Shown in pieces: positions 4,978 through 5,372 of a stretch of 11,317 bases of DNA. The DNA comes from a virus, in UHGV virus genome UHGV-0229837; one strand, written 5' to 3'. The notes beneath the pieces are model-generated. The model did no database searches, was not told where the DNA came from, and worked only from the letters and a program-made list of their open reading frames with translations. The translations under genes were made by a program, and so were the position numbers. Numbering within the stretch: position 1 is the stretch's first letter; every line of letters starts with the position of its first letter.

Positions 4978-5005
4978 TTGATTTTTCCGGAATCTGTGGT
5001 AAATT
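4978..5005 (+). promoter_or_regulatory. Late promoter PR' (-35 TTGATT, 16-bp spacer, -10 TAAATT), likely Q utilisation site region
   Basis: Located 6 nt after the Q stop; the -10 TAAATT is the same hexamer I recall for lambda PR'. A short leader follows, ending in a terminator. Confidence 0.5.
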
Positions 5006-5053
5006 CGTCATAACGATGGGCGTTTTATGCCTGACGTTAGAAGAGTTTCTACA

Positions 5054-5079
5054 ACCCGCCGCCGAGCGGGTTTTTTATT
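5054..5079 (+). terminator. tR'-like intrinsic terminator of the short PR' leader transcript
   Basis: Stem ACCCGC / loop CGCCGA / GCGGGT followed by TTTTTTATT, about 45-65 nt downstream of the predicted start site. Confidence 0.6.
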
Positions 5080-5115
5080 GCGGAATTAATTACGGACCGT
5101 TATTATTCTGCTCCC

Positions 5116-5191
5116 GGTCCTTTAGCTCAGTGGTGAGAGCGAGCGACTCATAATCGCCAGGTCGCTGGTTCAAATCCAGCAAGGGCCACCA
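5116..5191 (+). tRNA. ileZ: tRNA-Ile2 (anticodon CAU, lysidine type, reads AUA), phage ileZ-like
   Basis: Hand-folded cloverleaf: acceptor GGTCCTT/AAGGGCC, D-arm GCTC/GAGC, anticodon loop CTCATAA, T-arm GCTGG/CCAGC, 3' ACCA. C4:G69 and C5:G68 plus strong similarity to E. coli ileX as recalled favour Ile2 over elongator Met. Confidence 0.8.
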
Positions 5192-5295
5192 TCACAAACC
5201 GCCATTAGCTTATCAGGAAGAGCAGACGACACGATAACAGGGGTGTTGGTGCGGGGGGGCGCGGGTCCCCGATGGCGGTCCATTATCGGTATTCA

Positions 5296-5372
5296 GCGTT
5301 GTTAGCTCAGCCGGACAGAGCAATTGCCTTCTAAGCAATCGGTCACTGGTTCGAATCCAGTACAGCGCGCCA
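5296..5372 (+). tRNA. argN: tRNA-Arg (anticodon UCU, reads AGA), phage argN-like
   Basis: Hand-folded cloverleaf: acceptor GCGTTGT/ACAGCGC, D-arm GCTC/GAGC, anticodon stem ATTGC/GCAAT with loop CTTCTAA, T-arm ACTGG/CCAGT, 3' GCCA. Confidence 0.8.

What the first reader, a model, noticed from the sequence alone, without database searches (positions are those of the whole stretch)
4978..5372. PR'-tR' late leader followed by only two of the usual three phage tRNAs
The near-canonical late promoter and terminator are followed by tRNA-Ile2(CAU) and tRNA-Arg(UCU), which read the rare AUA and AGA codons. Many Stx-type lambdoid phages carry a third tRNA (argO), which is absent here. These tRNAs may support expression of the AT-rich cargo genes.
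Basis: partly seen in the sequence, partly recalled or inferred. Interest (0 to 1): 0.4.

Follow-up and report, generated by a model that had tools for sequence, protein, structure and literature searches.

The report
Prophage late leader plus two tRNAs
This is an ordinary, already-annotated piece of an E. coli lambda-like prophage: the late promoter and terminator after gene Q, then two tRNA genes for rare codons with the wreck of a third tRNA gene between them.

Summary
A lambda-type late promoter sits just after a Q gene, followed by an intrinsic terminator at 5053-5079. Its parts are TTGATT at 4978-4983, an extended -10 TGgTAAATT at 4997-5005, and the lambda pause hexamer AACGAT at 5012-5017. 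Two high-scoring tRNA genes follow: 5116-5191 (anticodon CAU) and 5296-5372 (anticodon UCU).

The CAU tRNA belongs to the ileX/ileY class (88-91% identity, against 66% to metT), so it is tRNA-Ile2. The UCU tRNA is argO, 76/77 identical to the Stx2a phage gene.

The interpretation needs two corrections.
- The gene missing from the 933W-type trio ileZ-argN-argO is the middle one, argN (UCG), not argO.
- argN is not cleanly absent. The spacer at 5199-5282 is a decayed argN, with the acceptor and D arms kept, the anticodon arm replaced and the T loop lost to a poly-G tract.

The same layout is annotated in phage phiP27. In a viral-contig sample it was commoner (at least 120 loci) than the three-tRNA form (53), and PGAP annotates it in over 1000 E. 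coli genomes.

The tRNAs probably have their own promoter (TTGCGG-17-TATTAT, 5078-5106). AUA, AGA and AGG are enriched in early, cargo and lysis genes alike. CGA is not significantly enriched. Already known; low interest.

The parts
4151..4972 (+). Late-gene antiterminator Q (273 aa). It is a lambda-Q homologue with an inserted DnaJ-type CxxCxGxG zinc-finger block.
   Evidence: Pfam PF03589 Antiterm, 180.6 bits, plus a DnaJ_CXXCXGXG match below its cut-off. BLASTP against lambda Q gives 31% identity, E 4e-38. PGAP names it 'antitermination protein' in near-identical genomes.
4978..5005 (+). Late promoter PR': -35 TTGATT (4978-4983), 16-nt spacer, extended -10 TGgTAAATT (4997-5005).
   Evidence: Read from the sequence. 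The -10 hexamer is identical to lambda PR' TAAATT. Both hexamers are almost invariant in 72 related copies; one copy has G at 5002 in the -10. It falls below the scan's 9-of-12 threshold.
5012..5017 (+). A -10-like hexamer AACGAT in the initially transcribed region. It has the same sequence and the same 6-nt distance from the -10 as the element I recall as the sigma-70-dependent pause element of lambda PR', where Q is thought to load.
   Evidence: Side-by-side reading of lambda and the window. The function is from established knowledge of lambda, not tested here. Positions 3-4 vary between copies while A2 and T6 are invariant.
5053..5079 (+). Intrinsic terminator tR': stem AACCCGC/GCGGGTT, loop CGCCGA, then TTTTTTATT. 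It would end a leader RNA of roughly 65-70 nt.
   Evidence: Terminator scan. RNA fold of 5010-5082 shows a 5' hairpin plus the terminator hairpin, -21.9 kcal/mol, z -2.0. Among 72 copies, changes lie mostly in the loop or are rare single stem changes.
5078..5106 (+). Candidate sigma-70 promoter of the tRNA module: TTGCGG (5078-5083), 17-nt spacer, TATTAT (5101-5106), ending 9 nt before ileZ.
   Evidence: Read from the sequence. The TTGnnn-17-TATTAT arrangement is kept in four upstream families whose spacers differ widely. Homology with Stx phages begins exactly at this -35. [quoted passage not shown] Another paper mentions a 'pS tRNA promoter' (PMC2858043). Not tested for this copy.
5116..5191 (+). 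ileZ: tRNA-Ile2, anticodon CAU. By analogy with ileX/ileY, C34 would be converted to lysidine so that it reads AUA. This allele has a U3-G70 wobble pair.
   Evidence: ARAGORN. Rfam 69.4 bits. 75/76 identical to Stx2a phage ileZ, 67-69/76 to K-12 ileX/ileY, 51/77 to metT. The U3 allele occurs in 12 of 112 sampled copies.
5199..5282 (+). Pseudogene remnant of argN, the tRNA-Arg(UCG) of 933W-type phages. The acceptor stem and D arm are kept. The anticodon arm is replaced by a 29-nt segment (5224-5252). The T loop is replaced by a G-rich stretch that includes a poly-G tract (5253-5259).
   Evidence: Alignment with Stx2a_WGPS8 argN and with phiP27. ARAGORN does not call it here or in any of the 112 related copies plus the window. 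The Rfam tRNA model gives no hit even at E<=10. Across copies the poly-G length ranges from 4 to 16 and acceptor-stem changes are uncompensated.
5296..5372 (+). argO: tRNA-Arg, anticodon UCU, reading AGA and, less well, AGG. This allele has a U4-G69 wobble pair.
   Evidence: ARAGORN. Rfam 68.0 bits. 76/77 identical to Stx2a phage argO and 57/77 to K-12 argU. It is the commonest allele among remnant-type clusters: 66 of 106, plus 15 copies identical over the 75 nt ARAGORN called.

Best explanation
The segment is the late-control junction of a lambdoid E. coli prophage, followed by a small tRNA module.

Inferred by homology with lambda: RNA polymerase starts at PR', pauses at the -10-like AACGAT hexamer, and without Q stops at tR', giving a leader RNA of about 65-70 nt. 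With Q it reads through the tRNAs, the cargo and the lysis genes.

Shown: directly after tR' lies a self-contained tRNA module shared with Stx phages. It holds ileZ (tRNA-Ile2, CAU), a dead copy of argN (UCG), and argO (tRNA-Arg, UCU). ileZ and argO are intact. argN has decayed. The prophage genes are rich in AUA, AGA and AGG but not significantly in CGA.

Inferred: the module has its own sigma-70 promoter (TTGCGG-17-TATTAT), so the tRNAs are probably made in the lysogen as well as during lytic growth. After lysidine modification ileZ reads AUA. argO reads AGA/AGG. The tRNAs thereby supplement scarce host tRNAs for prophage genes in general, and loss of argN costs little.
For: - tRNA calls and scores.
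- Identity of the CAU tRNA: 88-91% to ileX/ileY against 66% to metT. PGAP labels it tRNA-Ile.
- Cluster homology and gene order: AP012540 is annotated ileZ-argN-argO with anticodons CAT/TCG/TCT, and phiP27 is annotated ileZ + argO with a 101-nt gap.
- The remnant is a pseudogene.
- PR', pause element and terminator. Q is a lambda-Q homologue.
- Own promoter: hexamers and 17-nt spacing are conserved across diverged upstream families, and the homology boundary falls at the -35. Published start site and 'pS tRNA promoter': PMC7547250 and PMC2858043.
- Codons against 14,832 codons of K-12 core genes: ATA x7.5 (p 1.5e-14), AGA x4.1 (p 0.0016), AGG x11.4 (p 2e-8), CGA x1.9 (p 0.07).
- tRNAs downstream of Q in lambdoid phages, explained by rare codons, are standard in the literature (PMC3636060; PMC7946995).
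Against: - No expression data exist for this copy. The tRNA promoter rests on consensus, conservation and a start site mapped in a related Stx2a phage.
- The -35 of that promoter matches only 3 of 6 positions, and the promoter scan lists neither it nor PR'.
- Lysidine formation and aminoacylation cannot be tested here.
- The U3-G70 (ileZ) and U4-G69 (argO) wobble pairs could weaken function.
- The codon counts are small (1822 codons). The baseline is one 50-kb K-12 region. Several counted ORFs are hypothetical.
Confidence: 0.88

Rival explanations
1. The tRNAs have no promoter of their own. They are simply part of the Q-antiterminated late transcript and are made only after induction.
For: They lie between tR' and the late genes on the same strand. 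The candidate -35 is weak at 3 of 6 positions, and the scan does not list the site.
Against: The TTGnnn-17-TATTAT arrangement is kept while the spacer and flanks diverge, and the module's homology boundary falls at the -35. A primary start site that appears to drive the tRNAs was mapped in a Stx2a phage with the homologous upstream sequence (PMC7547250). A 'pS tRNA promoter' is also mentioned in PMC2858043.
Confidence: 0.12
2. The CAU tRNA is an extra elongator tRNA-Met, as ARAGORN and many phage records label it, and not an AUA-reading tRNA-Ile2.
For: ARAGORN assigns Met from the anticodon alone. Many phage records annotate the homologue as tRNA-Met (PMC7946995).
Against: It is 67-69/76 identical to K-12 ileX/ileY but 51/77 to metT/metU and 44/77 to metY. 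The acceptor pairs C4-G69 and C5-G68 match tRNA-Ile2, not tRNA-Met. PGAP and the curated records AP012540 and AJ298298 call it tRNA-Ile/ileZ.
Confidence: 0.02
3. The 84-nt spacer element (5199-5282) is not a dead gene. It is a working non-canonical tRNA-like RNA, for example a processing signal or decoy, and the variable poly-G tract tunes it.
For: It still folds with an acceptor-like stem, a D arm and two hairpins (-34.4 kcal/mol, z -2.0). The 29-nt replacement segment is almost invariant across copies, though part of that invariance comes from using it as the search pattern.
Against: The tRNA covariance model gives no match even at E<=10, and ARAGORN never calls it. The T loop is destroyed in most copies. 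Acceptor-stem substitutions are uncompensated. Length is variable and some copies are truncated. Its nucleotide diversity is about five times that of ileZ (0.047 against 0.009).
Confidence: 0.04

Closest known systems
Enterobacteria phage phiP27 (Stx2e phage) tRNA region, annotated ileZ + argO (AJ298298)
   Same: Same module and same layout: ileZ, a gap of about 100 nt that is an argN remnant with the same 29-nt replaced anticodon arm, then argO. Identity is 90.7% over window 5076-5385.
   Different: The phiP27 remnant still has an intact TTCGAGT T loop, while the window's is replaced by a poly-G/GC stretch. In phiP27 the module follows a DNA methylase gene and precedes stx2e. Here it abuts tR' and precedes non-toxin cargo.
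933W-type Stx2 phage cluster ileZ-argN-argO (e.g. Stx2a_WGPS8, AP012540)
   Same: Homologous module at about 87% identity with the same upstream promoter-like sequence. ileZ is 75/76 and argO 76/77 identical. It sits between Q/PR'/tR' and the late genes.
   Different: Those phages keep a functional argN (UCG), use a different, shorter Q with a different leader carrying two terminators, and carry stx2AB downstream.
Escherichia phage mEp460_ev081 (LR597641) and the many E. coli prophages annotated 'antitermination protein | tRNA-Ile | tRNA-Arg'
   Same: Identity is 98.8-99.8% over the whole Q-leader-tRNA segment. 1065 of 5426 complete E. coli genomes hold at least 80% of window 4960-5420.
   Different: Only point differences. 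In mEp460_ev081 the tRNAs are not annotated in the record, but ARAGORN finds them.
Lambda PR' / qut / 6S RNA / tR'
   Same: Q homologue, identical -10 (TAAATT), and an identical AACGAT hexamer at the same spacing followed by GGG. An intrinsic terminator lies downstream.
   Different: The spacer is 16 nt rather than 17, and the sequence between -35 and -10 differs (where I recall lambda's Q-binding element lies). The leader is about 65-70 nt, against 194 nt as I recall for lambda 6S RNA. Q carries an extra zinc-finger block, and lambda has no tRNAs.
StxS (Stx phage PR'-tR' leader acting as an Hfq-binding sRNA) and Gifsy-1 IsrK
   Same: Each is a short RNA constitutively made from an antiterminated late promoter and ended at tR' (PMC7547250).
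   Different: No significant sequence or structure match: isrK scores 16.2 bits against a gathering score of 50, E 0.42. No binding or target data exist for this leader.

Membership tests
tRNA-Ile2 (lysidine-modified CAU; ileX/ileY/ileZ class) | Canonical cloverleaf tRNA with anticodon CAU | tested here: met
   ARAGORN call at 5116-5191. Rfam RF00005 full-length match, 69.4 bits.
tRNA-Ile2 (lysidine-modified CAU; ileX/ileY/ileZ class) | Body sequence of the Ile2 class rather than elongator or initiator tRNA-Met, including acceptor pairs C4-G69 and C5-G68 (recalled as TilS determinants) | tested here: met
   67/76 and 69/76 identical to K-12 ileX/ileY, against 51/77 to metT/metU and 44/77 to metY. 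C4, C5, G68 and G69 are read from the alignment. The role of these pairs is from memory of the TilS literature.
tRNA-Ile2 (lysidine-modified CAU; ileX/ileY/ileZ class) | C34 converted to lysidine, charged with isoleucine, reads AUA | not testable with these tools
   Needs mass spectrometry or an aminoacylation assay.
tRNA-Arg(UCU) (argU/argO class) | Canonical tRNA with anticodon UCU. Arg identity elements C35 and A20 (from memory). | tested here: met
   ARAGORN call at 5296-5372. Rfam 68.0 bits. 76/77 identical to annotated argO. C35 and the GGA of the D loop are read.
933W-type three-tRNA cluster ileZ-argN-argO | Three intact tRNA genes in the order CAU, UCG, UCU | tested here: not met
   Only two are called. 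The middle unit fails ARAGORN and the Rfam model even at E<=10. Its anticodon arm and T loop are lost.
933W-type three-tRNA cluster ileZ-argN-argO | Homologous module, upstream leader included, located downstream of Q/tR' and before the late genes | tested here: met
   Single-piece alignment of window 5076-5387 to many Stx phages at 87-91% identity. Position established.
phiP27-type two-tRNA cluster (ileZ, argN remnant, argO) | ileZ and argO intact, separated by about 100 nt carrying the argN acceptor and D arms and the 29-nt replacement segment | tested here: met
   Alignments. phiP27 annotation. The pattern GACGACACGATAACAGGG occurs in at least 120 viral-contig loci; of the 112 with enough flank to analyse, 105 have both flanking tRNAs called by ARAGORN.
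Lambda-type Q-dependent late transcription unit (PR'-qut-tR') | Sigma-70 promoter immediately downstream of a Q gene, with a -10-like pause-inducing element in the initially transcribed region | tested here: met
   Q homologue. TTGATT-16-TGgTAAATT, with AACGAT at the lambda spacing. Conserved in 72 copies. This is sequence-level evidence only.
Lambda-type Q-dependent late transcription unit (PR'-qut-tR') | Intrinsic terminator downstream that stops transcription without Q | tested here: met
   Hairpin plus T run at 5053-5079. Termination itself was not assayed.
Lambda-type Q-dependent late transcription unit (PR'-qut-tR') | Q binds a site at the promoter and makes RNA polymerase terminator-resistant | not testable with these tools
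   Needs in vitro transcription or a reporter assay.

The most novel reading that the evidence does not exclude
The constitutively made PR'-tR' leader of about 65-70 nt (roughly 5012-5079) may be a trans-acting Hfq-dependent small RNA, as StxS is in Stx phages. The unusual multi-allelic variation at positions 3-4 of its pause hexamer (AACGAT, AATGAT, AATAAT, AACAAT, AAAGAT, AACTAT) would then tune pausing, Q loading or sRNA output between prophage lineages. A more remote possibility is that the argN remnant with its variable poly-G tract is a functional tRNA-like element.
Probability: 0.12. Interest if true: 0.4.

Novelty: already known. Interest (0 to 1): 0.1.

Why it matters
It matters little beyond correct annotation. 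The locus is a textbook example of a lambdoid late-control region with a tRNA 'moron' that offsets rare-codon use.

Practical points:
- CAU tRNAs in these prophages should be labelled tRNA-Ile2, not tRNA-Met.
- The 'two-tRNA' clusters contain an argN pseudogene. Tools do not report it, and its poly-G tract is length-variable and could disturb assemblies or typing PCRs.
- Retention of ileZ and argO with loss of argN mirrors the prophage's codon usage, which is enriched for AUA, AGA and AGG but not significantly for CGA. This is a small, tidy case of selection keeping only the useful tRNAs.

Tried and rejected
- Rfam at a permissive threshold on 4960-5480, looking for a weak tRNA signal in the spacer or a known sRNA in the leader. 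The only extra hits were sub-threshold ones: Trp_leader 25.5 bits, which is just the terminator; isrK 16.2 bits; and Plastid-ycf2 on the antisense strand of ileZ. All were rejected as chance or generic matches.
- The promoter scan lists neither PR' nor the tRNA promoter. I did not take this as evidence of absence, because the lambda PR' hexamers (read) match only 9 of 12 by my count, the scan's minimum.
- One scan of genome contigs with the remnant-specific 18-mer gave E. coli plus three unrelated hits (a Rhizobiaceae MAG, Hoylesella and a Rhodospirillales MAG). None of the three has flanking tRNAs. I estimate about 17 chance matches for an 18-mer in 596 Gb, so they were rejected as chance.
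- Literature searches for 'ileZ', 'argN' and 'argO' returned noise or nothing. The two primary papers I recalled (933W genome 1999; phiP27 genome 2002) are not held under the PMC ids I recalled. PMC6266700 on pR' regions does not mention tRNAs. No supplement of PMC7547250 is held, so the exact tRNA start-site coordinate could not be checked.
- I considered whether the U3-G70 pair in ileZ could mimic the alanine identity pair G3-U70. I rejected this because the orientation is reversed (own knowledge) and the allele is a minority variant of an otherwise C3-G70 tRNA.
- An anticodon-arm reading of the remnant, such as a 7-nt loop GATAACA or a 10-nt loop, does not give a canonical loop with U33. 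Where the window and phiP27 differ (5243, G against T), no compensating change is seen.

Full report
**1. Observation**

ARAGORN finds exactly two tRNA genes in the 11.3-kb window. One lies at 5116-5191 with anticodon CAT and one at 5296-5372 with anticodon TCT. The Rfam tRNA covariance model matches both full-length at 69.4 and 68.0 bits, against a gathering score of 29.

Upstream, a terminator-like hairpin at 5053-5072 is followed by TTTTTTATT. The ORF 4151-4972 ends at 4972. It is a Q antiterminator (Pfam PF03589, 180.6 bits) and is 31% identical to lambda Q (E 4e-38).

Six bases after its stop codon the sequence reads TTGATT (4978-4983), a 16-nt spacer, TGgTAAATT (4997-5005), CGTCAT, AACGAT (5012-5017), GGG. 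Lambda PR', fetched for comparison, reads TTGACT, a 17-nt spacer, TAAATT, TGACTC, AACGAT, GGG.

The -10 hexamer is therefore identical to lambda's. So is the downstream -10-like hexamer, which in lambda induces the sigma-70-dependent pause where Q loads (established knowledge), and it sits at the same spacing. The generic promoter scan does not list this site because it reaches only 8 of 12 matches. Homology to lambda is the stronger argument. The finding's coordinates are accurate.

**2. Identity of the tRNAs**

ARAGORN names the CAT tRNA 'Met' from the anticodon alone. Aligned with E. coli K-12 genes, it is 67/76 identical to ileX and 69/76 to ileY. It is only 51/77 identical to metT/metU and 44/77 to the initiator metY.

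It has C4-G69 and C5-G68, which I recall as the acceptor-stem pairs that the lysidine synthetase TilS uses to tell tRNA-Ile2 from tRNA-Met. PGAP labels the same gene tRNA-Ile in near-identical E. coli genomes. Curated phage records call it ileZ.

The TCT tRNA is 76/77 identical to the gene annotated argO in a Stx2a phage and 57/77 to K-12 argU. The window's alleles carry wobble pairs: U3-G70 in ileZ, found in 12 of 112 sampled copies, and U4-G69 in argO, the majority allele among remnant-type clusters.

**3. Which tRNA is missing**

In Stx2a_WGPS8 (AP012540) the cluster is annotated ileZ, argN, argO, with anticodons CAT, TCG, TCT. The window aligns with that cluster in one piece from 5076 to 5387.

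It is not cleanly absent either. Window 5199-5282 aligns with argN. The 7-bp acceptor stem (CCGCCAT...ATGGCGG), the 3' CCA and most of the D arm are kept. The anticodon arm is replaced by a 29-nt segment (5224-5252). The T loop TTCGAGT is replaced by a G-rich stretch with a run of seven G.

The Rfam tRNA model finds nothing there even at E<=10. It still folds into a cloverleaf-like shape, but without a canonical anticodon loop or T loop.

**4. How common the layout is**

Phage phiP27 (Stx2e) is annotated with just ileZ and argO, 101 nt apart. Its gap holds the same 29-nt replacement but an intact T loop. That looks like an earlier stage of the same decay.

An 18-mer from the intact argN anticodon arm hit 53.

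- In the 112 remnant-type copies with enough flank, ARAGORN called ileZ in essentially all and argO in 105. It never called the remnant.
- All 50 intact-type copies with enough flank gave three tRNAs.
- Across copies the remnant shows a poly-G tract of 4 to 16 G, uncompensated acceptor-stem substitutions and occasional truncation. Its nucleotide diversity is 0.047, against 0.009 for ileZ. That is the behaviour of a pseudogene.

In complete E. coli genomes, 3115 of 5426 have some match to window 4960-5420 and 1065 hold at least 80% of it. These are annotated 'antitermination protein | tRNA-Ile | tRNA-Arg'. In a one-genome-per-species collection only E. coli gave a genuine hit.

The best phage match to the Q-to-cargo query (window 4600-5900) is mEp460_ev081, at 98.8%. 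A recent paper also notes variation between three-tRNA and fewer-tRNA forms next to stx2i (PMC13641118).

**5. How it most likely works**

Shown by sequence and homology: a lambda-type Q gene, PR' with the pause hexamer, and tR'.

Inferred from lambda: without Q, transcription ends at tR' and yields a leader RNA of about 65-70 nt. With Q it reads through the tRNAs into the cargo and the lysis genes. Downstream genes include a phage-21-type holin, a DUF1327/YdfR protein and a lysozyme.

The tRNA module appears to carry its own promoter: TTGCGG (5078-5083), 17 nt, TATTAT (5101-5106), ending 9 nt before ileZ.

- The -35 is weak. However, TTGnnn-17-TATTAT is preserved in four upstream families whose spacers and flanks have diverged.
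- Homology with Stx and phiP27 phages begins exactly at this -35. Here the module abuts the tR' T-run. In Stx and phiP27 phages it abuts the 3' end of a DNA methylase gene.
[quoted passage not shown] Another paper refers to a 'pS tRNA promoter' (PMC2858043).

The module thus behaves like a moron, an independent transcription unit that is probably expressed in the lysogen too. That step is inferred for this copy.

**6. Codon test**

The baseline is 14,832 codons of annotated K-12 core genes. The window's ORFs total 1822 codons.

| Codon | Enrichment | p |
|---|---|---|
| ATA | 7.5-fold | 1.5e-14 |
| AGA | 4.1-fold | 0.0016 |
| AGG | 11.4-fold | 2e-8 |
| CGA | 1.9-fold | 0.07 |
| CGG | 2.3-fold | 0.005 |

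The enrichment is present in the early genes upstream of PR' (ATA x5.7, AGG x13) and in the lysis genes (ATA x6, AGA x8, AGG x11). In the cargo ORFs only ATA stands out, at x16. Five of the 12 Ile codons of the IraM-family gene on the opposite strand are ATA.

The tRNAs therefore match the prophage's codon usage in general, not specifically the AT-rich cargo. The weak CGA excess fits the tolerated loss of argN. Numbers are small and the baseline is one 50-kb region.

**7. Comparison with known systems and novelty**

The segment belongs to the phiP27-type two-tRNA variant of the Stx-phage ileZ-argN-argO module. It is attached to a lambda-Q-type late control region. It fails the defining feature of the three-tRNA cluster, since argN is not intact, but meets the others.

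Everything is annotated in public records and explained in the literature on tRNAs downstream of Q (PMC3636060; PMC7946995). I found no paper in the held library that describes the argN remnant as such, but I recall primary papers on 933W and phiP27 that are not held. Verdict: already known, ordinary, low interest.

**8. Residual curiosities**

Among 72 copies of this leader family, the only tri-allelic sites are positions 3 and 4 of the pause hexamer. The alleles are AACGAT 34, AATGAT 15, AATAAT 7, AACAAT 6, AAAGAT 5 and AACTAT 5, with A2 and T6 invariant.

Together with the StxS precedent, this leaves a modest chance that the leader is a functional small RNA, or that pause strength is under diversifying selection. 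Neither could be tested here.

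Noticed in passing
window 5012-5017: Positions 3-4 of the pause-type hexamer AACGAT are the only tri-allelic sites in the PR' leader among 72 related viral-contig copies. Six alleles occur (AACGAT, AATGAT, AATAAT, AACAAT, AAAGAT, AACTAT), with A2 and T6 invariant. This may be tuning of pausing or Q loading, or a CpG-like mutational hotspot.
   Followed up: partly
window 5253-5259: The poly-G tract inside the argN remnant is 7 G here but ranges from 4 to 16 G between copies. It is a slippage-prone homopolymer that changes the ileZ-argO spacing.
   Followed up: partly
window 6284-6619 (minus strand): An intact 111-aa IraM-family anti-adapter ORF (NCBIfam NF007393, 161 bits against a cut-off of 121). 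It is AT-rich (35% GC), and 5 of its 12 Ile codons are ATA. The same gene is a pseudogene with an internal stop in the closest genome hit.
   Followed up: partly
window 6069-6258: Full-length match to the Rfam sRNA family STnc100 (132 bits against a gathering score of 47) in the cargo region between the tRNAs and the lysis genes.
   Followed up: no
window 1656-1979: Type I toxin-antitoxin locus: Rfam sok antitoxin RNA at 1656-1826 (101 bits) and a hok-like ORF at 1824-1979. It is annotated hokD / MokW in related records.
   Followed up: no
window 9528-9912: A cspA-type thermoregulator 5' UTR (Rfam RF01766, 114 bits) leading into a 70-aa cold-shock protein ORF at 9673-9885. It is annotated CspG in mEp460_ev081.
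   Followed up: no
window 11079-11277: Full-length match to Rfam family IS009 (212 bits against a gathering score of 117) near the right end of the window.
   Followed up: no
window 4151-4972: Compared with lambda Q, this Q protein carries an insertion of about 66 aa holding a DnaJ-type CxxCxGxG zinc-finger block.
   Followed up: partly
window 5483-5836: A 117-aa ORF with a TTG start, just downstream of the tRNAs. It has no Pfam or NCBIfam match, and 6 of its 11 Arg codons are AGA/AGG. It is not annotated in the closest genome, so it may not be a gene.
   Followed up: partly
window 6868-7068: A DUF1737 ORF (Pfam, 52.6 bits). The closest genome annotates it as a partial gene missing its C-terminus, which suggests a decayed cargo region.
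   Followed up: no
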